Shown here piece by piece: positions 2,540 through 15,937 of a stretch of DNA of 15,937 nt. Position 1 is the stretch's first letter, and the number at the start of each line of letters is the position of its first letter. Position numbers and translations under genes: made by a program. The notes below the pieces were generated by a model that saw only the letters and a list, made by a program, of their open reading frames with translations, had not been told where the DNA came from and searched no databases. Origin of the DNA: a virus (taxonomy: Duplodnaviria > Heunggongvirae > Uroviricota > Caudoviricetes); the IMG/VR virus record IMGVR_UViG_2737471841_000003, one strand, 5' to 3'.

Positions 2540-2568
2540 ATTATAGCCAATATCTGGCGTTTAGACAA
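2540..2568 (-). promoter_or_regulatory. sigma70-like promoter for the 49-aa gene (-35 TTGTCT, 17-bp spacer, -10 TATAAT)
   Basis: Reverse complement of 2540-2568 reads TTGTCT-N17-TATAAT. The implied start site is about 70 nt upstream of the ATG at 2463. Confidence 0.35.
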
Positions 2569-3728: not shown

Positions 3729-3743
3729 TTTCCCCTTGCCTTG

Positions 3744-3905
3744 TCAGATAATGCCATAGTGTTTCAATGTTTCAATCAACCCATTACGTTTCAGGAAAGT
3801 TCGCACAGCCTCACGCGTAACTCCGGCTTTTCTGGCTATTTCCGAAAGGTTGATAAAATCAGTGTCTGTGTTTTCAATAACAACACGTTTGTTAATCAAT
3901 TTCAT
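3744..3905 (-). CDS. 53-aa helix-turn-helix DNA-binding protein (MKLINKRVVIENTDTDFINLSEIARKAGVTREAVRTFLKRNGLIETLKHYGII); absent from the ORF track (below its length cutoff)
   Basis: Translated codon by codon from the reverse strand: ATG at 3905-3903, SD AAGGAG (complement of 3914-3919) at 8-nt spacing, TGA at 3746-3744. The segment LSEIARKAGVTREAVRTFL is a typical HTH (excisionase/MerR-like or Nu1-like). Confidence 0.5.
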   Translation of the reverse strand: MKLINKRVVIENTDTDFINLSEIARKAGVTREAVRTFLKRNGLIETLKHYGII

Positions 3906-3940
3906 AAAATAAGCTCCTTGAAGAATACAGGTAAAAGGAT

Positions 3941-3978
3941 AATAAAAAAGGGAGGGAGGTTGTTAGCCTCTCCTCCCT
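3941..3978 (-). terminator. Intrinsic terminator or stabilising hairpin just downstream of the major capsid gene
   Basis: On the - strand: GGGAGGAGAGG, loop CTAACAA, CCTCCCTCCC, then CTTTTTTATT. It begins about 20 nt after the capsid stop at 3996. Phages commonly place a strong hairpin after the capsid gene. Confidence 0.5.
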
Positions 3979-3995
3979 TGTATTTAGCTATCAGA

Positions 3996-5024: not shown

Positions 5025-5036
5025 TCCATCCCCCTA

Positions 5037-5360
5037 TTAAAGTGCTAATTTGACATGTTCGTTTAACAGGTGGGGAATAGCTTCCGGAGGATTAATTCCG
5101 AAAGAATTTAATACCACACCGATCCCGTGAACAATAACTAATTTGTCGCCTTTTTTAGCTGGTTCCAATACCACAAATAAAGCAGGCATCTCTTCTTCGT
5201 CAGCGTCGAATTTTGCCCCTTCTGCGGTAATAACATCGCCAGGGAATAAATCCTCAGTTAATGCCGTTTTCAGTTCCAGAGCTTTTTGTTCAAACTCGGG
5301 GTCCATGGAATAGGCGACCACATCTGCACGTGTTTTACGCGGCTTATCAGAAAATAACAT
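5037..5360 (-). CDS. Putative head decoration protein (107 aa), lambda gpD-like by position and size
   Basis: ATG at 5360 with GAGGT SD. Its stop is 12 nt upstream of the capsid gene start. 107 aa vs 110 aa for lambda D. Sequence similarity to gpD was not confidently recognised; the call is positional. Confidence 0.45.
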   Translation of the reverse strand: MLFSDKPRKTRADVVAYSMDPEFEQKALELKTALTEDLFPGDVITAEGAKFDADEEEMPALFVVLEPAKKGDKLVIVHGIGVVLNSFGINPPEAIPHLLNEHVKLAL

Positions 5361-5429
5361 CGTGTTACCTCATCTCTATCGCATTTATCAGATTTAATGT
5401 ATTAGAATCTCACCTCTGATACATTAATA

Positions 5430-5460
5430 AAGGCCACCCCTTCAGGTTGGGTAGCCTTGA
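5430..5460 (-). terminator. Terminator-like hairpin upstream of the head genes (- strand)
   Basis: On the - strand: GGCTACCC, loop AACCTGAA, GGGTGGCC (8-bp stem with one G.U), then TTTATTAATG. It lies about 70 nt upstream of the start at 5360. Confidence 0.3.
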
Positions 5461-5913
5461 TAATGGACCAGGTGCATAATCCAGAGCACGAAGATTATTC
5501 TCTGGTCATTCGTCTGTCGAGGTGATTTAAATGTGAAGTGAATCAGGCATTACTGCCTCAATCCATATAATAAAACCTCCCCCTAGCCCAGAGAGAGGCC
5601 TTATTATTTACTAGGATATATGAATGACTGATTTCAGTCTGGCAGATTCGCTAATAGCTCACCGCCTGGCACTTATTATCGCCTTCATTAGATCACCACA
5701 AATAATGTCGGCTATGGGAGAATGTAACCCGCTCCCAGTTGTTCACAGTACAACCAGACTTTTTACTGGAGAAAGTAATATCCACTCGTATAAATATTAC
5801 CTTCTTTAAAGGCCCTCGCTACGGTGGAAAGAAGAGGTAGCACAGAACAACCAGCAAAGACCTTTAAAGAAGTACGCCCAGCATCAAGGGGAAAATGATG
5901 AAAAAGCTCTGAG

Positions 5914-5942
5914 CTTCCGGGCGTTGACAAGTACAGGAGAAC
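5914..5942 (+). promoter_or_regulatory. Near-consensus sigma70 promoter (TTGACA, 17-bp spacer, TATTAT; TG immediately upstream of the -10)
   Basis: TTGACA at 5914-5919, TATTAT at 5937-5942, TG at 5935-5936. Confidence 0.45.
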
Positions 5943-6018
5943 ACTGTATTATCCAATAATCGGTGAGATGTAGGTGAGATAACTCGAAAGGTGTAACCAT
6001 GAAAGTATCTACATCATA

Positions 6019-6038
6019 GTATTATGATAACATAATAC
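6019..6038. promoter_or_regulatory. Inverted repeat (GTATTATG ATAA CATAATAC), candidate operator or RNA hairpin in the leader
   Basis: 8-bp arms separated by 4 bp, downstream of the 5914 promoter and followed 16 nt later by a T7 run (6055-6061). Confidence 0.3.
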
Positions 6039-6095
6039 TTGCCGTTTGTCAATCCTTTTTTCAAAGAAATTTAAAAAATTTTTCTCTCCGCCTCT

Positions 6096-6142
6096 TTTCT
6101 CGATCAAACAATTGAAAAAACTATTGACTGAGGCGTTAGAAT
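6096..6142 (+). promoter_or_regulatory. Promoter for the homing-endonuclease-like gene: 13-bp upstream box TTTCTCGATCAAA, then -35 TTGAAA and -10 TAGAAT (19-bp spacer)
   Basis: The box at 6096-6108 is identical to 14751-14763, which sits in the same position relative to the consensus promoter at 14768. -35 at 6112-6117, -10 at 6137-6142. The spacer is longer than optimal. Confidence 0.35.
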
Positions 6143-6182
6143 GTGATACGGTTCACCACAAATGGTAAGTGGAGGGTGCGAT

Positions 6183-7013
6183 ATGAAAGAGAGAAAACAG
6201 GCTTTAGCTAAAACAACAGAGCAGTTCATCGCTGAGGCAAGGAAAGTGCATGGTGATAAGTACGATTATTCGAAAGTTGAATACGTGAATATGCGCACTG
6301 AGGTTTGTATCATTTGCCCAATACATGGGGAGTTCACACAAAGACCAGAGAACCATCTTCGCGGTAACAGAGGAAAGGGGTGTGGTTGCCCTATTTGTAA
6401 ACCTTGGAGAAAACGCCTGACACGAGAAGAGTTCGAAAGGAGGGTAAAAGAGGTACACGGTGATAACCTGGATGTTTCACAGTTCGATTATAAAAACGTT
6501 CACACAGAGGGTATTGTTAAGTGCAACAGGTGCGGCATGACGTTCTCGATACAGGCACAAGCGATTATCCTTAGAAATTCTGATGGTAGTCTTCTAGGCG
6601 GTTGCCCTGTGTGTGACCATCTACACAGAGACGCGGAATATGTTTATTTGGCGCTGGATGATCCACACTTTCCGACGAGATTTAAGATCGGGGTAACAAG
6701 CAACCCACAGGACAGATTGATAACTTTGAAGTGTAGAACACCTTTCAGGGTGTTTATGAAATGTTGTTTCAAAGTAGGAAAAGTGAAGGCGCGGAGGCTG
6801 GAGTACTTCCTGCACAACTTCTACAACTTCTGCAATTGTGGTTATGAATCAAGAAAGGACTTTCAGGGTGCAACAGAGTGGTTTTATTACCTGCAAAGTA
6901 AAGTAGGGGTGAAGAGGGTGCTCAAGATGTTAGTAAAACTGGTAAACGCCAGGAGCTACAACCGCCACTACATAAAGCATAAAAAGCCAACGTTTAAACG
7001 CACTTTGTTTTAA
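6183..7013 (+). CDS. Homing-endonuclease-like protein: two N-terminal Zn-ribbon repeats plus a C-terminal T5orf172 (GIY-YIG-like) domain
   Basis: Start moved to ATG 6183 (GGAGGG SD at 6171-6176); the track start at 6162 lacks an SD. Two tandem repeats of HGDKYDYSKVEY...C.ICP.HGEF.Q.P..HL.G.GC..C, then YVYLALDDPHFPTRFKIGVTSNPQDRL...EYFLH...ATEWFYY, which matches the T5orf172 pattern as I remember it. Confidence 0.65.
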   Translation: MKERKQALAKTTEQFIAEARKVHGDKYDYSKVEYVNMRTEVCIICPIHGEFTQRPENHLRGNRGKGCGCPICKPWRKRLTREEFERRVKEVHGDNLDVSQFDYKNVHTEGIVKCNRCGMTFSIQAQAIILRNSDGSLLGGCPVCDHLHRDAEYVYLALDDPHFPTRFKIGVTSNPQDRLITLKCRTPFRVFMKCCFKVGKVKARRLEYFLHNFYNFCNCGYESRKDFQGATEWFYYLQSKVGVKRVLKMLVKLVNARSYNRHYIKHKKPTFKRTLF

Positions 7014-7064
7014 TGGTGGGCCAGGGATGGTTATTGACTCTCAATCATTATTTTAAAAAAGATG

Positions 7065-7093
7065 TTGACTACCACACGGTAAAAGTGTATAAA
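7065..7093 (+). promoter_or_regulatory. Near-consensus sigma70 promoter (TTGACT, 17-bp spacer, TATAAA)
   Basis: TTGACT at 7065-7070, TATAAA at 7088-7093, about 40 nt upstream of the 7131 ORF. Confidence 0.5.
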
Positions 7094-7130
7094 GGGCCTA
7101 AAGAAAGAGAAGTGGCAAAGGAGGTAAAAA

Positions 7131-7250
7131 ATGTTCAGGCTGATGGTGAATGTCCTGGCGATAATCTTCGGGTTAGTGCTCTTTCTGATGGCCTGGAGCG
7201 TTATCTTTGAAGTAGTGGATATAGTGATGGCGATGTTAATGATTAAATAA
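7131..7250 (+). CDS. 39-aa hydrophobic single-TM peptide (MFRLMVNVLAIIFGLVLFLMAWSVIFEVVDIVMAMLMIK); not in the ORF track
   Basis: ATG at 7131 preceded by AGGAGG (7119-7124) at 6-nt spacing and by the 7065 promoter. TAA at 7248-7250. The overlapping track ORF 7013..7210 in another frame has no SD and covers the promoter. Confidence 0.4.
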   Translation: MFRLMVNVLAIIFGLVLFLMAWSVIFEVVDIVMAMLMIK

Positions 7251-7266
7251 CGCAGGAGGCAAGATC

Positions 7267-7329
7267 ATGAAACATTGGGAAGTGATTGCACTGTTCATCA
7301 TAATGTTTGTGATGTGCATCGAGTTTTAA
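7267..7329 (+). CDS. 20-aa hydrophobic peptide (MKHWEVIALFIIMFVMCIEF); not in the ORF track
   Basis: ATG at 7267 preceded by AGGAGG (7254-7259) at 7-nt spacing. TAA at 7327-7329. It is very short, so this is tentative. Confidence 0.3.
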   Translation: MKHWEVIALFIIMFVMCIEF

Positions 7330-7364
7330 CATTAGTCGATCAATATATTGAAGAGGTGACTACT

Positions 7365-7916
7365 ATGAAAACTATCAAAACTATCGCCGCTGTGGTCCTG
7401 GCAATGTTTGTGGGCAATGCTAATGCCGCCCTGGTGATCACAGACCAAGACATTGAAGACCACATGGAGACAATGGAGGTTTACTACCAGGCTGAGGATA
7501 TTGATTGTGAGATCTGGAGCAAGATGTTCACGAAAGGGGTAATTGAAGGTAACGACAAGTTCAGGCACGGTATCCGTGTTCACAAAGACCTCACAATTGT
7601 TGCCATGAAAGCTAAATCGGAGTTCTACAACAAATACGCAGGGGAGGTTGTCAAATCTGGCGCAAGTAAAGGATACAGCAAGGAGAGAGTAGATCAGATT
7701 AGAGATGTTTACATCGGTGCTTACATCGGTGCGGCCGAGATGAAATCTCGCGTAAACAGCAAGTTCGGCAAAGCCGCTGATCTTAACTCTGTAGCTAAAA
7801 AGAGAGCAGAAGCCGATCATTGGTTCAATTTCTGTGTGAAAGTGAAAGAAGAATATCCGGTCGTATTGTTCAACGAGTGGTTAGCTATAGCACAGCTGGC
7901 AGAAGATGATTTTTAA
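7365..7916 (+). CDS. Secreted (periplasmic) protein with Sec signal peptide, 183 aa
   Basis: Start moved to ATG 7365 (GAGGTG SD at 7353-7358). N-terminus MKTIKTIAAVVLAMFVGNANA/AL has n-, h- and c-regions with a predicted cleavage after ANA. There is no Cys at +1, so it is not a lipoprotein. The track start at 7275 lacks an SD. Confidence 0.6.
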   Translation: MKTIKTIAAVVLAMFVGNANAALVITDQDIEDHMETMEVYYQAEDIDCEIWSKMFTKGVIEGNDKFRHGIRVHKDLTIVAMKAKSEFYNKYAGEVVKSGASKGYSKERVDQIRDVYIGAYIGAAEMKSRVNSKFGKAADLNSVAKKRAEADHWFNFCVKVKEEYPVVLFNEWLAIAQLAEDDF

Positions 7917-7946
7917 CCGGGGACGATCATCGACTCAAAAAAGTGA

Positions 7947-7975
7947 TTGACAACGGAGGTGAGATCCGGTATAGT
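7947..7975 (+). promoter_or_regulatory. Near-consensus sigma70 promoter (TTGACA, 17-bp spacer, TATAGT)
   Basis: TTGACA at 7947-7952, TATAGT at 7970-7975, upstream of the 8011 gene. Confidence 0.5.
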
Positions 7976-8010
7976 TCACCACATAGAGAAGAGATACGGA
8001 GGGCAGCAAG

Positions 8011-8391
8011 ATGAAAACTTTCAATTGGGTTAAACCACAGATGTTACGTCGCGCCAATAACCACGGTGAGGGTGTACGCCACCACAACGACGCACCTGCA
8101 CCGGACATGAAGAAGGCACGCAAAGTGATCAATCTTCGTCAGGACGCGGCTATCGCTCGCAACCTGAAAGCAGAAGCGAAAAACCGTAACCCGTTGGAGG
8201 CAATTCTTGTTGCCCTGGTCAATGACCATGCAGCTCATTTCCGTCATTTCAATGGCATCAACCAGTACCAGATGGCAGAAGCCAACCGTAAAGAAGAAGA
8301 GCGGATCCTGGCTGGACTGGTACACGTTGAGATTGAACCTGAACCGGAACCGGAGGAAATTCATTGGGACCTCTGGAAAATGGCAGCTTAG
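8011..8391 (+). CDS. Hypothetical early protein (126 aa)
   Basis: ATG at 8011 with GGAGGG SD at 7998-8003. Contains a PEPEPE stretch. Function unknown. Confidence 0.6.
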   Translation: MKTFNWVKPQMLRRANNHGEGVRHHNDAPAPDMKKARKVINLRQDAAIARNLKAEAKNRNPLEAILVALVNDHAAHFRHFNGINQYQMAEANRKEEERILAGLVHVEIEPEPEPEEIHWDLWKMAA

Positions 8392-8452
8392 TCCACAGAG
8401 TGGATTTCACAGAGTGAAACCTGATAACAGGCAGCTTGAGGAGGCTTGAATC

Positions 8453-8917
8453 ATGAAAATTTTCAGTATTGAACATTACGAAGACAAAATTGAAGAGCTG
8501 GAAAGACTGGCTGAGATTGCAGATTATCGCGCGGGGTACGCCGCTGGACTTGCGGAAGTTCGGGAAAAAATACTTAAAAAATTCCACAGCTTGTACTATG
8601 TCCTGGCGGTTGCTGAGCAAGAACAAGATGAGGAGCTGTACGAGTACACGTCGTGCCGTATCCTGGAAATGGCGGGTGTGTACGGCATAATCAAGGCGGG
8701 AGAGGTGATCTCAGACGAAGAGATTGCGAAGAGACTTCGTAAACGCATCGAAAACGCATACTTTGAAGCGATCTACTATACGAAAAAAAGCACGGAGCTG
8801 TATAAACGCATAACTGCGGCGACGAAAGTTGTCACTCAGCTACAGAAAGTAAAAATCTTCAAACTGAAAGCGGCGTTGGCTATCGGTAAAATGTTTTTCC
8901 CACATCGTTTCAATTGA
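8453..8917 (+). CDS. Hypothetical early protein (154 aa)
   Basis: ATG at 8453 with GAGGAGG SD. Function unknown. Confidence 0.65.
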   Translation: MKIFSIEHYEDKIEELERLAEIADYRAGYAAGLAEVREKILKKFHSLYYVLAVAEQEQDEELYEYTSCRILEMAGVYGIIKAGEVISDEEIAKRLRKRIENAYFEAIYYTKKSTELYKRITAATKVVTQLQKVKIFKLKAALAIGKMFFPHRFN

Positions 8918-8945
8918 TTAAATAATAAACAGAGGAGACTGTAAA

Positions 8946-9314
8946 ATGAGTTACGAAAACTGCTGTTTCTGTGTGGAAGATGTGCCGCCAGTCATTCTGG
9001 AGCGTCACGGTGTGAAAACGTATCTGCCGATGATTCTGATGTTCGAGCATTTCCTCGATCATGGTGATGACGGTTTTTATGTCGGTTATAGTGAGGACGA
9101 TTTCCCTCCTGACTTGCTGAAAGAGTTGGAAGAAAAAGGCATCATTGAAGTATTTGATCAAACTGACGTGGATAATGGTGTGTGGGTAAGGGTTAAAAAA
9201 GAGATTCACATTGAACGTCTGCAACTTGCGGCAGAAGTCCAGGGCCTTGAGATTCTCGACATGAGCGACTACCTCAAACAACTGGACGAAGCATACAAGG
9301 CGCACGATTTATAG
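8946..9314 (+). CDS. Hypothetical acidic early protein (122 aa)
   Basis: ATG at 8946 with AGAGGAG SD. Tightly spaced after the preceding gene. D/E-rich. Confidence 0.65.
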   Translation: MSYENCCFCVEDVPPVILERHGVKTYLPMILMFEHFLDHGDDGFYVGYSEDDFPPDLLKELEEKGIIEVFDQTDVDNGVWVRVKKEIHIERLQLAAEVQGLEILDMSDYLKQLDEAYKAHDL

Positions 9315-9327
9315 GGGAGACACACAG

Positions 9328-9642
9328 ATGAATAAAGACGTGATTGAACTGCTGGAACAACTGAACAAGGCCGCTGAGTATATCCTGGCCGATGTGAAGG
9401 TCCTGGATGGTCACTTGTTGCTGGCGAGCAAGTCAGCCACACAGGAAGGAAGGGACAGGGCTGTCGAGCTATACGTTCAGGATGCTGCACATCTTATAAA
9501 CAAATGGTTGCCTGATGTGGGTGTCGAGGTGACAAACTACGCAGAAGCAACGGCGGCGCATATGGTGCTGATGCATCTGGCAATTGATAGTTACCGTAGT
9601 AACATGTTAGCAATGCTGGACTTCATGAAGGCTAAAAATTAA
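9328..9642 (+). CDS. Hypothetical early protein (104 aa)
   Basis: ATG at 9328 with GGGGAG SD, 14 nt after the preceding stop. Confidence 0.6.
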   Translation: MNKDVIELLEQLNKAAEYILADVKVLDGHLLLASKSATQEGRDRAVELYVQDAAHLINKWLPDVGVEVTNYAEATAAHMVLMHLAIDSYRSNMLAMLDFMKAKN

Positions 9643-9704
9643 TCGTACTCGATCAATAGTTCAATTTTACTTATGAATTGTGGAGAGCATAAGAGGTTCC
9701 AACA

Positions 9705-10226
9705 ATGAAAACTGAACTCAAACATGAAATTCTAAACGCTTTTAACAACCGTATCGAGGCCATAGTGGATGGTCAACCTGGCGGGATGTTCTTTGTGGAG
9801 GAAGCCATAGAGCTGGCTAAAGCGGAGGAAGCAGTAGAGAGAATACTCAACATCCCACACAGTGATCAATGTCTGGTAGATAGGTATCTATACGGCTTCA
9901 TGCGACTGGTCCGGCATTATTGCGAGGTGCCTGTGGACCATCATTTTATCAGTATGATCTACGCCGATGCTTCTGACTTCTTCTACAGGCTAGATCACAG
10001 AATAGACGAAATGATTGTTGTGTTACTGGCGGGATCTGATGACGAAAGGTTGTTAGACGTAGAACCTGATGAACTGGTGAAAAAACTTATTGAGCGTGTT
10101 TATCGGGAAATGGAGGCAGACGTAGAGGCAGCGGGTGAAGATGGAAGAATGCGGCAGAAGCTGGAGGCCGCGTATAAGGCCAGGCCGAAGGATGATGATG
10201 ACGATACGGAAGGAATCCCATTCTGA
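9705..10226 (+). CDS. Acidic early protein (173 aa) with an SSB-like C-terminal tail (...KDDDDDTEGIPF)
   Basis: ATG at 9705 with AAGAGG SD. Strongly acidic overall. The C-terminal codons were checked directly: GAC GAT ACG GAA GGA ATC CCA TTC TGA. Confidence 0.65.
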   Translation: MKTELKHEILNAFNNRIEAIVDGQPGGMFFVEEAIELAKAEEAVERILNIPHSDQCLVDRYLYGFMRLVRHYCEVPVDHHFISMIYADASDFFYRLDHRIDEMIVVLLAGSDDERLLDVEPDELVKKLIERVYREMEADVEAAGEDGRMRQKLEAAYKARPKDDDDDTEGIPF

Positions 10227-10277
10227 GCTATTGGGGCCGTCACTGGCCCCGCTTACCAACTAATCGGAGAGCATAAG

Positions 10278-10553
10278 ATGAAACTCAAACTTATCGAAAG
10301 TCAGCTGAACATGTTCTTTAAGATGGCAAGTGTGATCATTGTGGACGGTGAACAATTCGCGGGTCCAGTGCCACACAGTAGCATCGTTTTAGATATCAAC
10401 AGAGAGGCCCTTAAATGCGTTGTGGAGGCCGTATTTAATCAGGATGTAAAAGTGTATAGGCTTATGGAGTTTGAGCTACAGGAGCGCGATTTACGCATCA
10501 TAGAGCGACATTTGAAGGCTGAGCAAGCCGCAGAAGAGTTGAACCTGGATTAA
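10278..10553 (+). CDS. Hypothetical early protein (91 aa)
   Basis: ATG at 10278 with GGAGAG SD. Confidence 0.6.
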   Translation: MKLKLIESQLNMFFKMASVIIVDGEQFAGPVPHSSIVLDINREALKCVVEAVFNQDVKVYRLMEFELQERDLRIIERHLKAEQAAEELNLD

Positions 10554-10662
10554 GGGGGTGTATACCCCGAACATTGTGAGAGGTGTGAGATGGCTAAACA
10601 AATACTTTCAATTGTTCCACTGTGGAAACTGAATCATAAATTCGTAAAAAAATGGTAAACCA

Positions 10663-11013
10663 GTGCTGTTTACATACCTTGATGCGCTGGTCTTCGGTTA
10701 CATAGCACGAGCTAACTATGGGGGCAAGTGGTTCAACTTCGTAATGAAGAATGCAATCTACGACCTCTATACAAGCGAGAAGGAGATAACGCACAGCGTT
10801 GAAAAACTGGTTATGTTAAGACTTATCAAAATAATGCCGGGTGAAAGTTTGCCTAACTGCCACATGGTGGCGCAAGTCACTCATAAGGAATTGGAAGACA
10901 CGATCAATAGGTATATCGAGCGTGAAAGAATGTCTTGCGCGATGATCGACCTTGATGAAGAGAGGAGGAAACAATTCCAGGGTAATGATGAATGGGAAGA
11001 TTGTCCTTTTTAA
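10663..11013 (+). CDS. Hypothetical protein (116 aa from a GTG start; start uncertain), C-terminus ...NDEWEDCPF
   Basis: The ORF is open from 10648. The first start codon is GTG at 10663 with no clear SD; an alternative ATG at 10744 has a weak SD. It is preceded by a 22-codon uORF (10590-10658, SD GAGAGGTG) that ends in an A7 run. Confidence 0.45.
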   Translation: MLFTYLDALVFGYIARANYGGKWFNFVMKNAIYDLYTSEKEITHSVEKLVMLRLIKIMPGESLPNCHMVAQVTHKELEDTINRYIERERMSCAMIDLDEERRKQFQGNDEWEDCPF

Positions 11014-11030
11014 TGTAGGGGGGTGGCAAA

Positions 11031-12008
11031 ATGACTACAGAAGTGATGATCCAGATTTTCGAATCTGATTTAAATAATGATGGTAACTTAGTCCCGGTTG
11101 TTAACGCCCGTGAGTTTTACGAAGCGCTTGGGATGCGAAAAGATTATGGAAATTGGATCAGGTGGCATCTTCGGAAATTTGAAAAAAATCGGGACTTTAT
11201 TACTTTTATCGATAAGTCGGGAGAACATCCGCGTCATAACTATTTTATCACTTTGGACACTGCAAAGCACATATGCAGGGTGAGCCAACGCCAGGAAGGT
11301 GAGCAGTTGCTACAGTATTTAATTAAAGTTGAAAAAAGATACCGTTTAGTACTGGACCCACAACCACAGATTCCTGTTTACACACAGTCACAGATTCCTG
11401 TTTACACACAGTCACAGATTCCTGTTTACACACAGACGGAACCTGAACCGTTGCCAGGAACACCGGAACATTTTGCCCGTGCATTTACGGAGGCTTACCA
11501 ACAGATATACGGGGCAACAGATCAGCAGCCAGTCATTGAGCACAATACGGAACCTGTGGTTCCTTGTTGGGGAGCTGGGTCTAATCAGAGCCTCGAGGTC
11601 CAGGATGTGCAGGAAGTACGACCGCCAGCACCTGTGCTGGGGTATTACAATCCTTGCCCGGACAACAAAATCAACATGAAAGGCTTAAAAGAATACCTGA
11701 GCAATGAACGCCTGATCAAGTACCTCATTAAAAAATTCAACATTGAAAATGAGATTTATGATTATGGTTACATAAATGTGAAAGGGAAAGCTGAGTCGGA
11801 GATTGTGTACGATAAACGTAAAACGCTGGCGATCTTACATGCCGCTTACGCTTTGAGTACTAGAGTAAACGCCACACAGAGAGAGTTTATGGGGATAGTA
11901 TTCACGATGTACAGGGTGTTAAGAGACACACATTATGATAAGGACATGTACGATACAGCTTACACTCTTCTTGAAGAGGATATAAACAAATTGTATAAAA
12001 TTGATTGA
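11031..12008 (+). CDS. Antirepressor-like protein with N-terminal AntA-type domain (325 aa)
   Basis: ATG at 11031 with a G-rich SD. The N-terminus (VVNAREFYEALGMRKDYGNWIRWHLRKFEKNRDFITF...YFITLDTAKHI) matches the AntA/AntB antirepressor N-terminal pattern as I remember it. Contains a triplicated QIPVYTQS repeat. Confidence 0.65.
   Translation: MTTEVMIQIFESDLNNDGNLVPVVNAREFYEALGMRKDYGNWIRWHLRKFEKNRDFITFIDKSGEHPRHNYFITLDTAKHICRVSQRQEGEQLLQYLIKVEKRYRLVLDPQPQIPVYTQSQIPVYTQSQIPVYTQTEPEPLPGTPEHFARAFTEAYQQIYGATDQQPVIEHNTEPVVPCWGAGSNQSLEVQDVQEVRPPAPVLGYYNPCPDNKINMKGLKEYLSNERLIKYLIKKFNIENEIYDYGYINVKGKAESEIVYDKRKTLAILHAAYALSTRVNATQREFMGIVFTMYRVLRDTHYDKDMYDTAYTLLEEDINKLYKID
11367..11438 (+). repeat. 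Three tandem 24-bp direct repeats (CAGATTCCTGTTTACACACAGTCA) inside the antirepressor-like gene
   Basis: Units at 11367-11390, 11391-11414 and 11415-11438; the third differs in its last bases. In frame, encoding QIPVYTQS x3. Confidence 0.9.
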
Positions 12009-12086
12009 GCATCTATACTCGATCACAACTCAACAATAAAGACGGAGAGTCGAGAGCATGACTCTCCTCAACCCCGGAGGCCCAAC

Positions 12087-12362
12087 ATGTATTACTACGA
12101 TTGCAAAGACCCGATTCTGGCTGAACGTAACCGCCTGGCTAATGAGATCGCCCAACAGGCAAAAGAGAAAAAAGCCCAACAGCGTATGGAGCTTGGAAAA
12201 GAGATTTACAGACTCCACACAGACGGCTACACAATGGAATGTATAGCCAAAAAGCTGGGAATGTCTGAACCAACAGCCTACAGACTGCAACGGGCATATC
12301 TGAAAGCTAACCCGCACCTCAAAGTGTTCTCGGGGCGTGTTGCGGCACGGGGTCGTAGTTAA
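12087..12362 (+). CDS. Small HTH DNA-binding protein (91 aa), resolvase/sigma-region-4-like HTH
   Basis: ATG at 12087 with GGAGG SD (12076-12080). The segment GYTMECIAKKLGMSEPTAYRLQRAY is HTH-like. Its stop lies 10 nt before the first operator-like palindrome. Confidence 0.6.
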   Translation: MYYYDCKDPILAERNRLANEIAQQAKEKKAQQRMELGKEIYRLHTDGYTMECIAKKLGMSEPTAYRLQRAYLKANPHLKVFSGRVAARGRS

Positions 12363-12371
12363 CACACACTA

Positions 12372-12408
12372 GGGACAAAATGTCCTACCTACCCGGGACA
12401 AAATGTCC
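12372..12408. promoter_or_regulatory. Two copies of a 14-bp palindromic operator-like site, GGGACAAAATGTCC, 23 bp centre to centre
   Basis: Exact copies at 12372-12385 and 12395-12408. Each is a dyad (GGACA-N3-TGTCC). Confidence 0.5.
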
Positions 12409-12409
12409 A

Positions 12410-12419
12410 CCCCCCCCCC
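12410..12419. repeat. Homopolymeric C10 tract
   Basis: Ten consecutive C at 12410-12419, directly after the second operator copy. Confidence 0.9.
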
Positions 12420-12449
12420 GGCAATATGTGATTCCCGGAAGACACATGT

Positions 12450-12486
12450 TTGTACAAATTGTAGTCACTGATTGTACAGATTGTAG
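12450..12486. repeat. Two direct repeats TTGTACA(A/G)ATTGTAG spaced 22 bp
   Basis: 12450-12464 and 12472-12486. Each has a TGTACA palindromic core. Confidence 0.6.
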
Positions 12487-12490
12487 CACT

Positions 12491-12573
12491 ATACCGGTTT
12501 TCCGATAGAGCTATACCGGATTTCCGGTAGAGGTATACCGCTTTTCCGGTATAGGTATACCGGATTTCCGGTA
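12491..12573. repeat. Iteron array: four 17-bp dyad-symmetric sites (ATACCGG-N-TTTCCGGTA) at exactly 22-bp spacing; putative replication origin or partition/regulator binding array
   Basis: Sites at 12491-12507, 12513-12529, 12535-12551 and 12557-12573. Arms TACCGGA and TCCGGTA are reverse complements. Followed by an AT-rich stretch (12574-12622), the same layout as the lambda origin (four dyad iterons plus an AT-rich region). Confidence 0.6.
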
Positions 12574-12622
12574 ACTATTAGATCAATCTATTACATCAAG
12601 AAAAAAGATCACTTATTATATT

Positions 12623-12645
12623 AAGGGCCTTGCCCTTTTTGTTGT
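12623..12645 (+). terminator. Terminator-like hairpin (AAGGGC, loop CTT, GCCCTT, then TTTGTTG)
   Basis: 6-bp GC-rich stem with a 3-nt loop, then a T-run, at the end of the AT-rich region. It would terminate read-through from the 12087 gene across the iterons. Confidence 0.35.
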
Positions 12646-13845
12646 GGGATTGATTGGTGGGATTGATCTTACTGATAGTATAATACTCCACCAATCAACC
12701 CTAAGTTGTGGGAGAGTACGGAGCAGACTGCGACTACAGAGCAGGCTGAGAAGTACTCAATGGGTGTAAGGGATTAAGGGACCCACACACATTTCCACAC
12801 ACAGAGTAAAGCCAGAGGCTTTATGAAGTGTAAGAGTAATGCCTAAAGAGTCGAAGCACACTTTAGGCTATATTGTGTGGGAGGTATCTGTACATAGTAC
12901 AGAGTACTCCCCATTATGTGGGGGCAATCCTGCCCGTAAGGGCAGCTCATGTGATTCGCAGCCGTAAGCTGAACTGCGACGAAGAAGGCTGCAAAGGTTC
13001 TCGGCCCGGTTACAATTACGCAACAATTTTATAATCTATCGTTAACCTATACCACTATCACAATTTCTATAGTTGAGTCCTACTATCCCCTACACCATAA
13101 AATCAATTTTAAGCCACACTCAGCCTACGGCTTCACGGTAAAACGTGTTTTAACCCACATAATGGCCCCTGTAGTGAGCTAAATGGTATACACCGCTATA
13201 ATTGGGTTACTTATGAGATAACCTCGTTAGAATCGATTCTAGAGCGTTTTAGAGCTTGAAATCCATCCTGCAAACTGCAAGATGATGATTCTATCGGGGA
13301 AGAATTTTTTTCCTTCCCGTAAGTCGTACCGTAGAGCAGATTTGCTTTACGAGCTTTCTCACACCTCAGGCCTCTGGCCTTCATGGAGTATCGGAGATAC
13401 GACTCACCGCATATACTCTGTTTTCAGTGCTACCCTGATCGCATCCGACCCTTTTCAGAGGCACTTTTAACCGCATTCTGGCACGCTACAACAGCAAGAA
13501 ATAGGCTGATTCTACTGATTTTACCTTACAATACAGGTACATAGCAGAAGGGCAGGAATATACTGTGAGAATGGTTGCTAGACCGGGCCTTCTTCTCTCT
13601 GTGTGTGCATTCTGAAACCGTTATGTAGTCGAGTATATAACGACTGGTCAGACCAGTGCAGGGCTGAAAATGATGATCGGTCACCACAATTATGGGCAAA
13701 TTACTGTACATTCATACAGTAGTTATACATAAAGAATATGCATCGATTGCTCTTTAGGCACAGATGTTATAATGTAACAATTAATTTAGTTTACCTCGGT
13801 AATCACTGTGTGGACATGTCACGCAACTAAACTAAATCCGAAGAG

Positions 13846-13854
13846 TTATCCACA
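13846..13854 (+). promoter_or_regulatory. Consensus DnaA box TTATCCACA
   Basis: Exact 9-mer match to the R-type DnaA box, single copy. Nearby are an 8-bp palindrome GACATGTC (13812-13819) and a 10-bp inverted repeat, ATTTAGTTTA (13783-13792) with TAAACTAAAT (13827-13836). Confidence 0.3.
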
Positions 13855-14687
13855 GATTGGGGGTAAATCATCAACATAGTCTGTAGCCTCTGACAGAGAG
13901 CAAAAAGAAAGGCCTTTTATGTGATCAATATCACGTTTCTGGGGTAGTTCTGGAGGCTTAGGTGCGGGGAAGTAGTGCGTACTGACACCAGAGGCCGCAT
14001 AAAACAAGGGGATTTAACATAATGGATCTTGTATACACCACACCTCACCACGTTGAAATCTGATCTTACTTTGAGGCTATCTGCCAACAGAATCCGCGTA
14101 CATGCACCATAACCTGTATGTGGGATGCAATAATAAAGGCCCTGGCGGCCCACAGGCCGCATGAATACTGGGCTTGTCATAGATATGGGCCTGTATCGCT
14201 ATGTAGATGCGGGATGACCTGTAAGGGTGTGGCAGGTGGCAGGGGCTGGAGGGCACGGTACAGCACAGCTAATGGGTGAGGCCCCAGATATTTGAGAATC
14301 ACTCTCACCTGAGAATAATTATCAGTAACTCCTGCCTAGTACCACCCCTGTAGGTAAGGTTGATCATTGCCCACATTGCTGGTATACTTTATCTGTGGGA
14401 AAGTAACGCCGTTACTTCCGCGAACGCTGTGCGTGATGTGTGGGAGAATGTGCCTGCGTAATAAAAAAATTGAAAATTACTCATCTGTCAACATTTCAAT
14501 GACGTATGTCAATCATTTATGCTATGTGTTTACTTTATAATCAATCACTTACGAATTTAATGAAATAAATGCATTTAAATAGGGTGAAACTCAAATCTAA
14601 CCCCTGAAACTGTGTTGATAAAGGGGCGTGAAGCCCGGCGTAGGTAACTCGTTACCCGCCAGTGTTATTGATAATTCTCATTTACGT

Positions 14688-14716
14688 TTGACAATGCAAT
14701 CCCAATGGTGTATAAT
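14688..14716 (+). promoter_or_regulatory. Perfect consensus sigma70 promoter (TTGACA, 17-bp spacer, TATAAT)
   Basis: TTGACA at 14688-14693 and TATAAT at 14711-14716, in an AT-rich upstream context. Confidence 0.6.
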
Positions 14717-14750
14717 AGACTATAAGGGGTAAGATAGAATCTTTACTCAA

Positions 14751-14796
14751 TTTCTCGATCAAAGGTATTGACAAATGAGAGTAAAGGTGTTATACT
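14751..14796 (+). promoter_or_regulatory. Second tandem near-consensus promoter (13-bp box TTTCTCGATCAAA, then TTGACA, 17-bp spacer, TATACT)
   Basis: Box at 14751-14763, -35 at 14768-14773, -10 at 14791-14796. It lies 80 bp downstream of the 14688 promoter. Confidence 0.6.
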
Positions 14797-14885
14797 TATC
14801 TATAACAGCAAAACTCTACTTTAGAGCCGCTCCATGAGGAGCAAAGCTCCGAAGTGTGATCATAGTCGGTAAATCCCTTACTTAC

Positions 14886-14918
14886 CGGGGGCACTTCTCC
14901 AGCCCCCTCTCTTTTTAA
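14886..14918 (+). terminator. Intrinsic terminator in the leader (GGGGGC, 9-nt loop, GCCCCC, then TCTCTTTTTAA)
   Basis: Stem 14887-14892 pairs with 14902-14907, followed by a T-run at 14908-14916. It is about 110 nt downstream of the predicted start site and about 50 nt upstream of the 14969 start. Confidence 0.5.
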
Positions 14919-14968
14919 CGGTATGGTAAGAAAACATTCTTTATAAGTGATAAAAGAGGTAGTTAATC

Positions 14969-15208
14969 ATGGCTAAACCTTATTCAAATAGCTTTAACAT
15001 TGAAACAATGAGAGCTGATCAGATTGTAGACATGGTGAGGAACCAGGAACTTTCAGAGGAGACGCTCTACATGTTCATCTATCGCACGAAGAACCGTTAC
15101 CCGGAGGTAGATAAGGCATGGAAGGAGATCAAGCGCCTCAAAAAAGAGTTCAAGAAAGAAGCTGAATTGTACTGGCGCAAACGGTTTTTCTATAACTACA
15201 AAGGCTAA
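14969..15208 (+). CDS. Hypothetical basic protein (79 aa)
   Basis: ATG at 14969 with AGAGGT SD. K/R-rich C-terminal half. Confidence 0.6.
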   Translation: MAKPYSNSFNIETMRADQIVDMVRNQELSEETLYMFIYRTKNRYPEVDKAWKEIKRLKKEFKKEAELYWRKRFFYNYKG

Positions 15209-15240
15209 TCGGTAGAGATAACAAAGATAAAGGTGGAAAC

Positions 15241-15756
15241 ATGAGAGCAGTTTTTGATCAGCTGCCGTGGTGGCTTGATTTTCTCGAAGAACTGGACGGA
15301 AAGAAATTTAAACTGACAAAAGGTGAAGCGAGAGCATTTGCTTGTATTCTTACGTATGCCGCGACATGTGGTAAGATTTTCCCGTCACTCCACACAATAG
15401 CCCTTCATATGGGTTTACGGAGTGAAAAACGAGCGCCGACACAGGCGCATAAAGCGATCAAAGGCCTGGAGGAAAAAGGCCTTATACGTGTTAGCCGTCG
15501 CGCTGGGTGTGGAAACCATTATGAACTAGTTTACACAGCAGATCAACTCTTTGAGATGACAAAGCAACAGAATCCAGACTTGTTCAAAGGCTATGAAGAC
15601 ACGTTCGGAGAAGAGGATAGGGAGAGAGAACAGGCAGGGGATAAACCGAAGAAACATGATACAAAACAGGGGGTTACGTGTCAACATGACAACGGTCAAC
15701 CGGATGATATTCACATAGAAGCGTGTGATCTGGATGCTACTGACATACCATTTTAA
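15241..15756 (+). CDS. HTH_36-type winged-helix DNA-binding protein (phage replication/regulatory type), 171 aa, with SSB-like C-terminus (...DLDATDIPF)
   Basis: ATG at 15241 with AAGGTGG SD. The segment LTKGEARAFACILTYAATCGKIFPSLHTIALHMGLRSEKRAPTQAHKAIKGLEEKGLIRVSRR matches the HTH_36 pattern seen in the N-terminal domains of phage replication proteins. The terminal codons GAC ATA CCA TTT TAA were checked. Confidence 0.7.
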   Translation: MRAVFDQLPWWLDFLEELDGKKFKLTKGEARAFACILTYAATCGKIFPSLHTIALHMGLRSEKRAPTQAHKAIKGLEEKGLIRVSRRAGCGNHYELVYTADQLFEMTKQQNPDLFKGYEDTFGEEDREREQAGDKPKKHDTKQGVTCQHDNGQPDDIHIEACDLDATDIPF

Positions 15757-15824
15757 CATAAATCACAGCTCCGCATGAAGCTACGCTGAATAAATCACAC
15801 TGTATTAACAATGAGGTAACAAAA

Positions 15825-15937
15825 ATGAGTTTAGTTGAAAGATTGAAAAAAATCCTCGCCACAGAAGAGGTAGAGGAAGAGGAAGAAGTAGAGAAGGCGG
15901 CGGATCCTAAGCCTGAGAAGGCTGTGAATACCCAGAG
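15825..15937 (+). CDS. 5' end of a downstream gene (partial; MSLVERLKKILATEEVEEEEEVEKAADPKPEKAVNTQ...)
   Basis: ATG at 15825 with GAGGT SD (15813-15817). The ORF is open to the window end. Confidence 0.5.
   Translation, partial: MSLVERLKKILATEEVEEEEEVEKAADPKPEKAVNTQ

What the first reader, a model, noticed from the sequence alone, without database searches (positions are those of the whole stretch)
12643..14445. Six same-strand copies of the heptamer TGTGGGA within the ORF-free region
Exact TGTGGGA occurs at 12643, 12707, 12876, 14119, 14394 and 14439, all on the + strand; two sit in a 10-mer TGTGTGGGAG and two in GTTGTGGGA. A specific 7-mer is expected about 0.2 times per strand in 2.6 kb, so an oriented repeated motif like this suggests recognition sites for a protein or RNA. 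The first two copies flank a 14-bp inverted repeat, GGGATTGATTGGTGG (12646-12660) with CCACCAATCAACCC (12689-12702). The motif was chosen after seeing the sequence, so it needs statistical control.
Basis: seen in the sequence. Interest (0 to 1): 0.4.

Follow-up and report, generated by a model that had tools for sequence, protein, structure and literature searches.

The report
Oriented TGTGGGA motif in satellite's noncoding region
The six same-strand TGTGGGA copies are real, far above chance and conserved across a previously undescribed family of ~15-kb circular phage-satellite-like elements, where they most likely act as a strand-specific signal in structured noncoding transcripts, although what reads the signal is still unknown.

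Summary
TGTGGGA occurs six times on the + strand of the 2.6-kb ORF-free stretch and never on its - strand. Only 6 of 2000 shuffles gave any 7-mer that many copies. The window is a complete circular 15.9-kb replicon carrying a capsid gene, a tape-measure gene and a tail-tube-initiator gene, all distantly related to rV5-like myophages. This points to a plasmid-like phage satellite. Eleven relatives from other assemblies each carry 1-6 + strand copies (5-6 in the four full-length ones) and none on the - strand. These fall in about 29 distinct sequence contexts, so the 7-mer itself is under selection. It lies among hairpins supported by compensatory changes. One copy sits 5 nt after the -10 box of a promoter conserved in three sequence versions. 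Its partial complement CCCACA is enriched nearby on the same strand, and indels often end at motif copies. My best reading (confidence about 0.4) is an RNA-level cis element: a helix foot or 5' tag read by pairing or by a helper or host factor. A DNA-binding-site array, for packaging or regulation, is the main rival. It is not Chi, not a Rep iteron, not a DnaA box, not CsrA-type and not in Rfam.

The parts
12363..14968 (+). ORF-free region between the 91-aa HTH gene and the 79-aa gene. It is a mosaic of conserved blocks (about 12640-13130, 13535-13730, 14235-14400 and 14450-14968) and exchangeable modules.
12643..12649 (+). TGTGGGA copy 1. It forms the 5' arm of hairpin A. It reads TGGTGGGA in five of the six relatives that cover the site (TGTGGGA in L012), where it is part of a tandem GGTGGGATTGAT repeat.
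12707..12713 (+). TGTGGGA copy 2, invariant in all 7 aligned relatives. TGTGGG can pair with CCCACA at 12782-12787.
12876..12882 (+). TGTGGGA copy 3, invariant in all relatives while the upstream flank varies. It can pair locally with CTCCCCA, or long-range with ATTTCCACACAC at 12790-12801.
12917..12923 (+). TGTGGGG variant. CCATTATGTGGG (12911-12922) is perfectly complementary to CCCACATAATGG (13154-13165).
13564..13570 (+). TGTGAGA, a one-mismatch copy. It reads TGTGGGA in L020 and L022.
14119..14125 (+). TGTGGGA copy 4, inside a module shared only with L021 and L022. TGTGGG can pair with CCCACA at 14149-14154.
14394..14400 (+). TGTGGGA copy 5. It starts 5 nt after the -10 box of promoter P0 and is invariant in 10 relatives, while both the promoter version and the downstream sequence vary.
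14439..14445 (+). TGTGGGA copy 6, at the 3' end of a 45-nt insertion that is bounded by TGTGGGARAR direct repeats. L019, L021 and L022 lack the insertion.
14360..14388 (+). Promoter-like P0: TTGATC, 17 nt, TGgTATACT. L019, L021 and L022 have TTGCCT, 17 nt, TGaTACAAT instead, and L010 has a third version. The spacing to the motif is the same in all.
12782..12787 (+). CCCACA, the complement of TGTGGG. Further copies lie at 13154-13159, 14149-14154 and 14370-14375. Each is 24-237 nt from a TGTGGG.
12640..13015 (+). Block I, an array of hairpins. Folding z-score is -5.7 on the + strand and -7.5 on the - strand. Compensatory changes are seen in helix 12958-12963 with 12987-12992 and in the hairpin at 12808-12822.
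5713..5719 (+). TATGGGA in the second intergenic region. It reads TGTGGGAGAATGT in L012, L006 and L005, where it is preceded by TTGCCT, 18 nt, TAATGT and then 4 nt.

Best explanation
TGTGGGA, usually followed by 2-3 purines, is a strand-specific cis element of the + strand noncoding transcripts of a ~15.9-kb circular, plasmid-like phage-satellite candidate.

The 2.6-kb region is a mosaic of RNA stem-loop modules and regulatory DNA sites. The heptamer marks the 5' edge of many modules. One copy lies at the start site of a conserved sigma-70 promoter, so that transcript would begin (U)GUGGGA. Others form the 5' strand of basal helices, pairing as UGUGGG with CCCACA or as GGGA with UCCC.

I infer that it works at the RNA level, in one or both of two ways. 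It may nucleate a common helix foot by base-pairing. It may be a short tag read by a sequence-specific factor supplied by the helper phage or the host, for processing, stabilisation or anti-termination of an untranslated transcript.

Shown: enrichment, strict orientation, conservation as an island, the setting among hairpins, and the promoter juxtaposition.
For: - **Enrichment and strand.** There are 6 copies on +, 0 on - in the region, and only 6 of 2000 shuffles gave any 7-mer that many copies. Four full-length relatives have 5-6 + copies and 0 - copies, and 0 of 1000 shuffles reached the observed count. Across 12 sequences there are 49 copies in about 29 distinct contexts, all on +.
- **Sequence-level constraint.** At copies 2, 3 and 5 the 7-mer is invariant while one or both flanks diverge; at copy 5 both the promoter and the downstream sequence do. 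Only positions +1 to +4 (R R K W) show any further bias, so the copies are not recent duplicates.
- **Orientation matches transcription.** The copies point the same way as the flanking + strand operons and the promoters P0, P1 and P2.
- **Promoter juxtaposition.** Copy 5 starts exactly 5 nt after an extended -10 box in three different promoter versions. A similar arrangement (TTGCCT, 18 nt, TAATGT, 4 nt, TGTGGGA) occurs in the second intergenic region of relatives.
- **Structured setting.** Block I folds with z-scores of -5.7 and -7.5. Six predicted pairs show double-sided compensatory changes, for example GCAGCC/GGCTGC versus GCTGCC/GGCAGC versus GCTGGC/GCCAGC, and AAAGCC..GGCTTT versus AAGAGC..GCTCTT.
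- **Complement nearby.** CCCACA occurs 4 times on the same strand against about 0.6 expected. Every copy in every relative lies within 21-237 nt of a TGTGGG.
- **Helper-like phage.** In rV5-like phage FFH2 the motif clusters in the ORF-poor 104.4-106.8 kb stretch (5 of 24 genomic copies). Its orientation flips across a divergent promoter-operator region, so it is co-oriented with the predicted transcription on both sides.
Against: - There are no transcript data, so promoters and start sites are predictions.
- The predicted pairing probability of the motif's GGG is 0.84, against 0.79 for other GGG triplets in the same regions. Thermodynamics alone therefore does not single the motif out as a helix foot.
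- Only about a third to a half of the copies have an exact CCCACA partner.
- Apart from copy 5, -10-like hexamers are not enriched upstream of the copies.
- The motif helices themselves never vary, so they give no covariation evidence.
- The FFH2 motif sites are not in strongly structured sequence.
- No reader was identified. The conserved 79-aa protein has no informative fold match.
Confidence: 0.4

Rival explanations
1. The copies are an array of asymmetric double-stranded DNA sites for a protein. The protein could be the conserved 91-aa HTH_23 protein encoded just upstream, a helper-phage terminase small subunit, or a helper regulator. The array would direct a polar process such as packaging initiation or satellite activation.
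For: - The region is a hub of DNA-level sites: iterons, a LexA-like box, a DnaA box, an IHF consensus and paired operators.
- It shares short words, including TGTGTGGGAGGTA, TGTGTGGGAAA and TGTGGGATTGAT, with the ORF-poor region of rV5-like phage FFH2. That region is the top k-mer-sharing window of the FFH2 genome for k = 9-12.
- A7 and the following purines are conserved although they cannot pair with the base before CCCACA. This argues for sequence-specific reading.
- An HTH gene always abuts the region.
- At least one Vequintavirinae phage packages from fixed 514-bp terminal repeats (PMC9862379), so a satellite would need to mimic a signal.
Against: - Spacing is irregular (45-1240 bp) and there is no dyad symmetry or phasing.
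- The copies are spread over 1.8 kb, unlike known pac or cos clusters.
- Copies lie inside hairpins supported by covariation.
- FFH2 copies occur in both orientations.
- The location of the helper's termini could not be established.
- There is no detectable DNA homology to FFH2.
Confidence: 0.27
2. The motif has no dedicated reader. It is microhomology that persists because hairpin modules are gained, lost and swapped by recombination or slippage between short direct repeats, so copies mark module junctions.
For: - Several indels are bounded by motif copies. The window's 45-nt insertion lies between TGTGGGAAAG and TGTGGGAGAA.
- L012, L020 and L021 have an insertion flanked by ATGKGKGTAAGG.
- L014 has a duplication flanked by CTCCCCATTATGTGGG.
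- L026 has a tandem TGTGGGAAATGTGGGAAAG.
- Most family members encode a serine recombinase.
Against: - Microhomology explains deletions between existing repeats. It does not explain why one heptamer is maintained in about 29 contexts with strict orientation, or why it is invariant where no indel exists (copies 2, 3 and 5).
- Similarity between copies does not extend beyond about 10 nt.
- The same word is enriched in an unrelated phage region.
Confidence: 0.12
3. Every copy marks a transcription start. The heptamer would be an initiator or early-transcribed element of many small promoters, giving a cluster of small RNA genes that each begin GUGGGA.
For: Copy 5 lies 5 nt after a conserved extended -10 box in three promoter versions. 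The second-intergenic copy in relatives follows TTGCCT, 18 nt, TAATGT, 4 nt.
Against: A TANNNT hexamer 3-7 nt upstream was found in 8 of 31 contexts, against an 11% background. Five of those eight are the P0 site itself, although the scan scored a downstream TACTTT rather than the P0 -10 box in two of them, and the rest are at background level. The sequences upstream of copies 1-4 and 6 are not conserved as promoters.
Confidence: 0.08
4. Chance or compositional artefact.
For: The motif was chosen after seeing the sequence. GGG-containing words are common in a region with mildly positive GC skew.
Against: The selection-corrected frequency is about 0.003. TGTGGGA accounts for 6 of the 15 GGGA words. 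The result is replicated in all relatives, with 0 of 1000 shuffles reaching the observed count and no - strand copy.
Confidence: 0.02

Closest known systems
Satellite P4 CI RNA with its seqA/seqB/seqC repeats, and the phage P1/P7 c4 antisense RNA (Rfam C4 family)
   Same: A short sequence is repeated in one orientation in an untranslated, transcribed region of a satellite or phage. It acts through RNA-RNA pairing with complementary copies in the same transcript. (This description is from established knowledge.)
   Different: No match to the C4 family or to any Rfam family, even at E <= 10. Here there are 5-6 G-rich copies against 1-4 complements, spread over 1.8 kb, with no defined small RNA.
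CsrB/RsmZ-type sponge RNAs with many GGA motifs
   Same: A noncoding RNA carries many copies of a short GGA-containing word among hairpins, read by one RNA-binding protein.
   Different: CsrA sites are A(N)GGA, typically in hairpin loops, at about one per 20 nt. Here the word is UGUGGGA, mostly predicted in stems, at about one per 400 nt.
Lambda nutL/nutR and HK022 put sites
   Same: These are cis RNA elements placed downstream of promoters in transcript orientation. In FFH2 the motif lies about 100-130 nt downstream of each of two divergent promoter-like elements. The satellite region contains terminator-like hairpins that transcription must pass.
   Different: There is no boxA or boxB similarity and no N- or Q-like gene was identified. 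The satellite has many copies rather than one per transcript.
Oriented short repeats next to phage packaging sites or genome ends: T7 SRL/SRR heptamer arrays, P1 pac hexamers, lambda cosB R sites
   Same: Short asymmetric words are repeated in a noncoding region of a phage-type genome. The satellite must be recognised by a helper terminase.
   Different: The known arrays are compact (100-200 bp). Here the spacing is 45-1240 bp, and the ends of neither satellite nor helper are mapped.
Plasmid or P4-type replication repeats (iterons; P4 ori/crr octamers)
   Same: Direct repeats in the noncoding region of a small replicon. P4 has octamers at two distant loci.
   Different: The element has separate, regular 22-bp iterons (12489-12575). 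These co-vary with the Rep-like gene, whereas TGTGGGA stays constant when both are replaced.

Membership tests
Chi (RecBCD regulator, E. coli type) | The octamer GCTGGTGG, oriented and over-represented | tested here: not met
   There is no GCTGGTGG on either strand of the window. TGTGGGA shares only GG with Chi. The closest words, TTGGTGG in hairpin A, match 6 of 8 positions.
Rep-binding iterons | Regularly spaced direct repeats of about 17-22 bp whose sequence tracks the cognate Rep | tested here: not met
   TGTGGGA is 7-10 nt long, irregularly spaced, and unchanged when the iterons and the Rep-like gene are replaced. The 22-bp TATACCGG repeats do fit this family.
DnaA box | The 9-mer TTATCCACA (reverse complement TGTGGATAA), at most 1-2 mismatches | tested here: not met
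   TGTGGGARR differs at positions 6-7 and often 8. A perfect box exists separately at 13847-13855, in the opposite orientation.
CsrA-binding sponge RNA | Dense A(N)GGA motifs in hairpin loops | tested here: not met
   The motif is UGGGA, at a density of about 1 per 400 nt. Its GGG has a 0.84 predicted probability of being paired. There is no CsrB/Rsm Rfam hit.
Rfam C4/CI antisense RNA or any curated RNA family | A covariance-model match | tested here: not met
   There are no hits at gathering thresholds. Only three chance-level hits (E 2-7) appear at E <= 10.
Structured noncoding RNA (generic) | Thermodynamic stability above shuffles, plus compensatory base changes | tested here: met
   This holds for Block I: z-scores of -5.7 and -7.5 and 6 pairs with double-sided changes among 7 sequences. 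It is not shown for 13400-14600 or for the motif helices themselves.
Sigma-70 promoter start region | -35 and -10 boxes at canonical spacing, 5-8 nt upstream | tested here: inconclusive
   Met for copy 5 in three promoter versions and for the second-intergenic copy in relatives. Not met for the other copies.
Terminase recognition (pac/cos) repeats | Location next to the packaging cut site and binding by the small terminase | not testable with these tools
   There are no virion-end data for the satellite or helper. Assembly break points in rV5-like records were uninformative.
Phage satellite (context of the element) | A small element with a partial set of virion genes, lacking terminase and portal, related to a helper lineage | tested here: inconclusive
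   The capsid, decoration-like, tape-measure and Dit genes are 26-49% identical to rV5-like FFH2 genes. The 10 ORFs submitted to Pfam and PHROGs included no terminase, portal or integrase. Mobilisation by a helper is untested.

The most novel reading that the evidence does not exclude
The 2.6-kb region may encode a new kind of large, modular structured noncoding RNA locus. In this reading it is carried by a previously undescribed family of plasmid-like satellites of virulent rV5-like myophages. UGUGGGA would be the tag through which a helper-encoded factor recognises, processes or anti-terminates both its own noncoding transcripts and the satellite's. The satellite would then sense and hijack the helper by mimicking the helper's cis-element vocabulary: the motif, the TGAGAAT-N-ATTCTCA operators and the shared promoter words.
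Probability: 0.2. Interest if true: 0.8.

Novelty: new variant of a known kind. Interest (0 to 1): 0.55.

Why it matters
If the heptamer is a recognition tag shared between a satellite and its virulent helper, it gives a direct experimental handle. That handle is a 7-nt word that can be mutated, used as bait or tracked. It would help show how a plasmid-like satellite detects and exploits a large lytic myophage, a class of helper for which no E. coli satellite has been described in the literature I could search.

The work also flags a family of ~15-kb circular elements that carry their own capsid, tape-measure and tail-tube-initiator genes. About 16% of each genome is devoted to a mosaic, partly structured noncoding region. 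Such elements are invisible to protein-centred annotation. If the motif proves to be only a structural helix foot, the finding is a modest annotation of a new noncoding RNA region.

Tried and rejected
- **Rfam.** Gathering and E <= 10 searches gave no family. ARAGORN found no tRNA or tmRNA.
- **DNA similarity.** The region and the whole window gave nothing in phages, plasmids or E. coli complete genomes, apart from a 100-bp antA hit.
- **Collection scans.** IMG/VR, JGI metagenomes and GTDB representative genomes, searched with DNA patterns and with protein alignments, returned no relatives. Relatives came only from exact-protein look-ups in Logan, ENA and NCBI assemblies.
- **Hidden coding.** ORFs of 25 aa or more are short, overlapping and uncalled.
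- **Chi, DnaA box, iteron and CsrA readings.** All rejected; see the membership tests.
- **Every copy is a start site.** Rejected.
- **Helix foot shown by thermodynamics.** The pairing probability is no different from control GGG triplets.
- **Long-range helix 12911-12922 with 13154-13165.** It is perfect only in the window and L022, has one mismatch in L020, and is broken in L019 and L021.
- **Direct homology to rV5-like phage FFH2.** blastn-short and nhmmer were negative. Only shared short words were found.
- **Locating helper genome ends.** GenBank repeat_region features turned out to be 31-41-bp repeats, and the record ends are assembly overlaps.
- **The 79-aa protein.** The AlphaFold model is confident, but there is no PDB fold match with E below 5.
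- **Conserved AT-rich block 14385-14610.** Against phages at a relaxed E-value, only noise was returned.
- **Literature.** Searches for the motif, the accession or an rV5 satellite found nothing relevant.
Full report
**1. The observation**

Exact TGTGGGA occurs on the + strand at 12643, 12707, 12876, 14119, 14394 and 14439. The only other copies in the window are three on the - strand, at 4164, 8898 and 9853. So is the inverted repeat between copies 1 and 2, with arms at 12647-12660 and 12688-12701.

The stretch 12363-14968 has no ORF above 87 aa, and two independent assemblies called no gene in it.

Because the motif was picked after seeing the sequence, I asked how often the most frequent 7-mer of a dinucleotide shuffle of the region reaches six copies. 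It did so in 6 of 2000 shuffles. GGGA as such is not unusually common. TGTGGGA accounts for 6 of the 15 GGGA words in the region.

**2. What the window is**

The window is the entire contig JUDJ01000049.1 of assembly GCA_000798295.1. A Logan assembly of run SRR2239585 holds the same sequence circularly permuted. In that contig the last base of the window is followed directly by its first base. The window is therefore a complete circular (or concatemeric) 15.9-kb replicon.

It encodes the following:

| Feature | Coordinates | Strand |
|---|---|---|
| Tape-measure protein | 118-2256 | + |
| Dit-like tail-tube initiator | 2901-3728 | - |
| Lambda-E-type major capsid protein | 3996-5024 | - |
| Decoration-like protein | 5037-5360 | - |
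| T5orf172 nuclease | 6162-7013 | + |
| AntA-like protein | 11031-12008 | + |
| 91-aa HTH_23 protein | 12087-12362 | + |
| 79-aa protein | 14969-15208 | + |
| Rep-initiator-like protein | 15241-15756 | + |

The ten ORFs I submitted to Pfam and PHROGs included no terminase, portal or integrase. The Dit-like protein is 49% identical to the tail-tube initiator of rV5-like myophages (Vequintavirinae). The capsid, decoration-like and tape-measure proteins are 26-28% identical to their FFH2 counterparts. I read the element as a candidate plasmid-like satellite of a large virulent myophage. This is inference; mobilisation has not been tested.

**3. Relatives**

Ordinary similarity searches and collection scans found nothing. 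Exact-protein look-ups did recover relatives. The 79-aa protein is identical in 24 contigs. Among these are four further full-length elements of 14.9-15.2 kb (L019, L020, L021, L022), plus several partial contigs.

- Every full-length relative has 5-6 TGTGGGA copies on the + strand of the homologous noncoding region and none on its - strand.
- The rest of each element (about 12 kb) holds 0-4 copies on either strand.
- In each relative, 0 of 1000 shuffles reached the observed count.
- Across 12 sequences there are 49 copies in about 29 distinct 42-nt contexts, all on the + strand. Beyond the heptamer only positions +1 to +4 are biased (R R K W, and never C at +1).

So the copies are not recent duplicates of a longer unit, and the heptamer itself is maintained.

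**4. Anatomy of the region**

A MAFFT alignment of the five full-length regions shows a mosaic.

- **Iteron block (12366-12620).** It holds four 22-bp repeats, two GGGACAAAATGTCC copies and a C10 run. In relatives it is replaced by unrelated repeats, and the Rep-like gene also varies (171-382 aa). This looks like a replication specificity module.
- **Block I (about 12640-13130).** Conservation starts close to copy 1.
- **Block II (13535-13730).** It contains a LexA-box-like TACTGTACATTCATACAGTA.
- **Block III (14235-14400).**
- **Block IV (14450-14968).** It holds two near-consensus promoters and a terminator-like leader before the 79-aa gene.

Exchangeable modules lie between the blocks. Copies 2, 3 and 5 are invariant in all sequences. 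Copy 4 lies in a module shared with L021 and L022, while other relatives carry different modules with their own TGTGGGA or TGTGGGG copies. Copy 6 closes a 45-nt insertion bounded by TGTGGGARAR direct repeats. Copy 1 reads TGGTGGGA in most relatives. Several other indels also end at TGTGGG words.

**5. Evidence for RNA structure**

Block I folds far better than shuffles, with z-scores of -5.7 on the + strand and -7.5 on the - strand. In a seven-sequence alignment, six predicted pairs keep pairing through changes on both sides.

- Helix 12958-12963 with 12987-12992 reads GCAGCC/GGCTGC, GCTGCC/GGCAGC or GCTGGC/GCCAGC.
- The hairpin at 12808-12822 is AAAGCC-AGA-GGCTTT in some relatives, AAGAGC-TGGA-GCTCTT in others, and AGAGTAC-AGA-GTACTCT in L012.
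- An inserted hairpin is GGAGC-TTT-GCTCC in L012 and GAGGC-TTT-GCCTC in L021.
- Loop-sized insertions leave the closing stems intact, for example the CTGCCC...GGGCAG stem in L012.

These are the usual signs of a functional RNA fold, or less likely a single-stranded DNA fold. The middle of the region (13400-14600) is not unusually stable.

**6. How the motif relates to these features**

- The partial complement CCCACA occurs four times on the same strand, against about 0.6 expected. In every relative each CCCACA lies 21-237 nt from a TGTGGG. Examples are copy 2 with 12782-12787, copy 4 with 14149-14154, copy 5 with 14370-14375, and TGTGGGG at 12917 with 13154-13159.
- Copy 3 can pair either locally with CTCCCCA or with the invariant ATTTCCACACAC upstream. 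The second pairing would enclose the variable hairpins.
- The A at position 7 cannot pair, because the base before CCCACA is A or G. Yet it is invariant, which argues for sequence-specific reading beyond helix formation.
- Copy 5 starts exactly 5 nt after an extended -10 box in three different promoter versions: TGgTATACT, TGaTACAAT with a TTGCCT -35 box, and the L010 version. The sequence after the motif takes at least five different forms. This is the clearest island of conservation. It predicts a transcript beginning (U)GUGGGA.
- A comparable arrangement (TTGCCT, 18 nt, TAATGT, 4 nt, TGTGGGAGAATGT) exists in the second intergenic region of relatives. The window reads TATGGGA there.

Two of my expectations failed.

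- The motif's GGG is not predicted to be paired more often than other GGG triplets (0.84 against 0.79).
- -10-like hexamers are not enriched upstream of copies other than copy 5.

**7. Link to helper-like phages**

The satellite region has no alignable homology to rV5-like phage FFH2. An unbiased count of shared k-mers nevertheless peaks, for k = 9 to 12, in FFH2's ORF-poor stretch around 104-107 kb (z about 4-5). Part of this could reflect composition shared between noncoding regions.

- The shared words include TGTGTGGGAGGTA, TGTGTGGGAAA and TGTGGGATTGAT.
- They also include a promoter-operator module: GATATTTGAGAAT, paired TGAGAAT-N-ATTCTCA-type palindromes, and TAATRGGTGAGGCC. All of these best-match one 125-bp FFH2 segment. 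I chose those three patterns after inspecting that segment, so the k-mer count is the unbiased test.
- FFH2 has 24 TGTGGGA copies genome-wide. Five of them lie in this ORF-poor stretch.
- The two copies to the left of the divergent operator region are on the - strand and the three to the right are on the + strand. Each is therefore co-oriented with the predicted outward transcription.
- These FFH2 sites are not in strongly structured sequence.
- A weak hit (E about 2) places the palindrome TGAGAATCACTCTCA in the left terminal repeat of T5-like phages. It sits there beside Fur-like, DnaA and LexA boxes.
- One Vequintavirinae phage is reported to have 514-bp direct terminal repeats and T7-type packaging (PMC9862379). 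I could not locate the termini of the E. coli rV5-like phages from the records.

**8. Interpretation**

Chance is excluded. Chi, DnaA-box, Rep-iteron, CsrA-sponge and Rfam-family readings each fail a defining feature; see the membership tests.

The properties that need explaining are these:

- a 7-10-nt asymmetric word;
- strict co-orientation with transcription;
- invariance amid divergent flanks;
- placement at the 5' edge of stem-loop modules and at one promoter start;
- an excess of the partial complement in cis;
- recurrence in a helper-like phage's noncoding region in transcript orientation.

Together these fit best an RNA-level (or co-transcriptional) cis element. It could be a common helix foot, a 5' tag, or both, read by pairing or by a helper or host factor. 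I put this at about 0.4.

The main rival, at about 0.27, is an array of asymmetric DNA sites for a polar DNA transaction such as packaging or activation. The shared vocabulary with the helper-like phage supports this rival equally well. Microhomology left by module shuffling (about 0.12) explains the indel boundaries but not the maintenance of the motif. A start site at every copy (about 0.08) is supported only for copy 5.

No tool here can show transcription or binding. The decisive experiments are listed separately.

**9. Novelty and score**

The motif is a new variant of a known kind of feature: a short oriented cis repeat in the noncoding control region of a mobile element. Its setting is more unusual. 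I found no description of this family of circular satellite-like elements, which devote about 16% of their genome to a mosaic, partly structured noncoding region. That region shares cis words with virulent myophages. I score the interest at 0.55.

Noticed in passing
window 1-15937 (junction 15937/1): The window is a complete circular or concatemeric replicon. In the independent Logan contig SRR2239585_139 the last base of the window is followed directly by its first base. A 72-aa gene spans the junction.
   Followed up: yes
window 118-5360; loci L006, L012, L019-L022, L024: This is a candidate new family of ~14-16-kb plasmid-like phage satellites. They carry their own capsid, decoration-like, tape-measure and tail-tube-initiator genes (26-49% identical to rV5-like phage FFH2). 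The 10 ORFs checked against Pfam and PHROGs included no terminase, portal or integrase. No relatives were found in IMG/VR, JGI metagenomes, GTDB representative genomes or INPHARED.
   Followed up: partly
window 12366-12620: An origin-like block holds four 22-bp iterons (TATACCGGWTTTCCGGTAGAGG, 12489-12575), two GGGACAAAATGTCC palindromes, two TGTACARATTGTAG repeats, a C10 run and an AT-rich stretch. In relatives the whole block is swapped for unrelated repeats (GGGTTATACAGTGTGG; AACATCCCTC..AAGGGAGG), and the Rep-like gene also varies (171-382 aa).
   Followed up: partly
window 14287-14324; FFH2 (NC_024134.1) 105395-105543: Paired palindromic operator-like sites, TGAGAATCACTCTCA and TGAGAATAATTATCA, overlap a TTGAGA-16-AATAAT promoter. 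The rV5-like phage has four such sites and the same GATATTTGAGAAT promoter word in its ORF-poor region. This suggests a regulator shared between helper and satellite. The second site also resembles a Fur box (14 of 15 positions).
   Followed up: partly
window 13702-13721, 13847-13855, 14539-14551: Consensus-like sites for host factors: a LexA box TACTGTACATTCATACAGTA (17 of 20, conserved in relatives), a perfect DnaA box TTATCCACA in a module shared with L021 and L022, and an IHF consensus AATCAATCACTTA.
   Followed up: no
L031 (Salmonella phage SIA3lw, T5-like) 240-1000: The noncoding left terminal repeat of T5-like phages carries TGAGAATCACTCTCA, identical to window 14293-14307. It also has six oriented TGTCGGATTTGCACA repeats, Fur-like boxes, two DnaA boxes and a perfect LexA box. 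This is a similar collection of sites to the satellite region. The BLAST hit itself is weak (E about 2).
   Followed up: partly
window 12929-12947: The hairpin CCTGCCC-GTAA-GGGCAG followed by CT resembles the stem of type I-F CRISPR repeats (CTGCC-GTATA-GGCAG-CT, recalled from memory). In L012 the loop is replaced by a 50-nt structured insertion while the stem is kept. A possible repeat mimic; not tested.
   Followed up: no
window 14688-14968: Two near-consensus sigma-70 promoters (14688-14716, 12 of 12 matches; 14768-14796, 11 of 12) are invariant in all relatives. They precede a leader with a terminator-like GGGGGC..GCCCCC hairpin plus a T-run (14887-14916), just upstream of the 79-aa gene. 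This suggests attenuation or anti-termination control of the operon holding the 79-aa, Rep-like and tape-measure genes.
   Followed up: no
window 14969-15208: The 79-aa protein is identical in 24 contigs although the neighbouring genes vary. The AlphaFold model is confident (pLDDT 83) and shows three helices, the last one long and basic. It has no PDB fold match and no Pfam family.
   Followed up: partly
window 11031-12008: The AntA-like protein contains three tandem QSQIPVYT repeats after its AntA domain. In relatives this gene is replaced by a T5orf172/DUF723 nuclease. In the window, a T5orf172 nuclease at 6162-7013 occupies the position that a serine resolvase holds in relatives.
   Followed up: no
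FFH2 (NC_024134.1) 104392-108560: rV5-like phages have a ~4-kb ORF-poor stretch with many promoter-like sites, a strongly folding inverted-repeat segment at 105.9-106.3 kb (z down to -8.8) and CCTGAAGAG repeated three times. Related words (TTGCCTRAAGAG) occur in Block I of the satellite. Its function is not annotated in any of 122 related records.
   Followed up: partly
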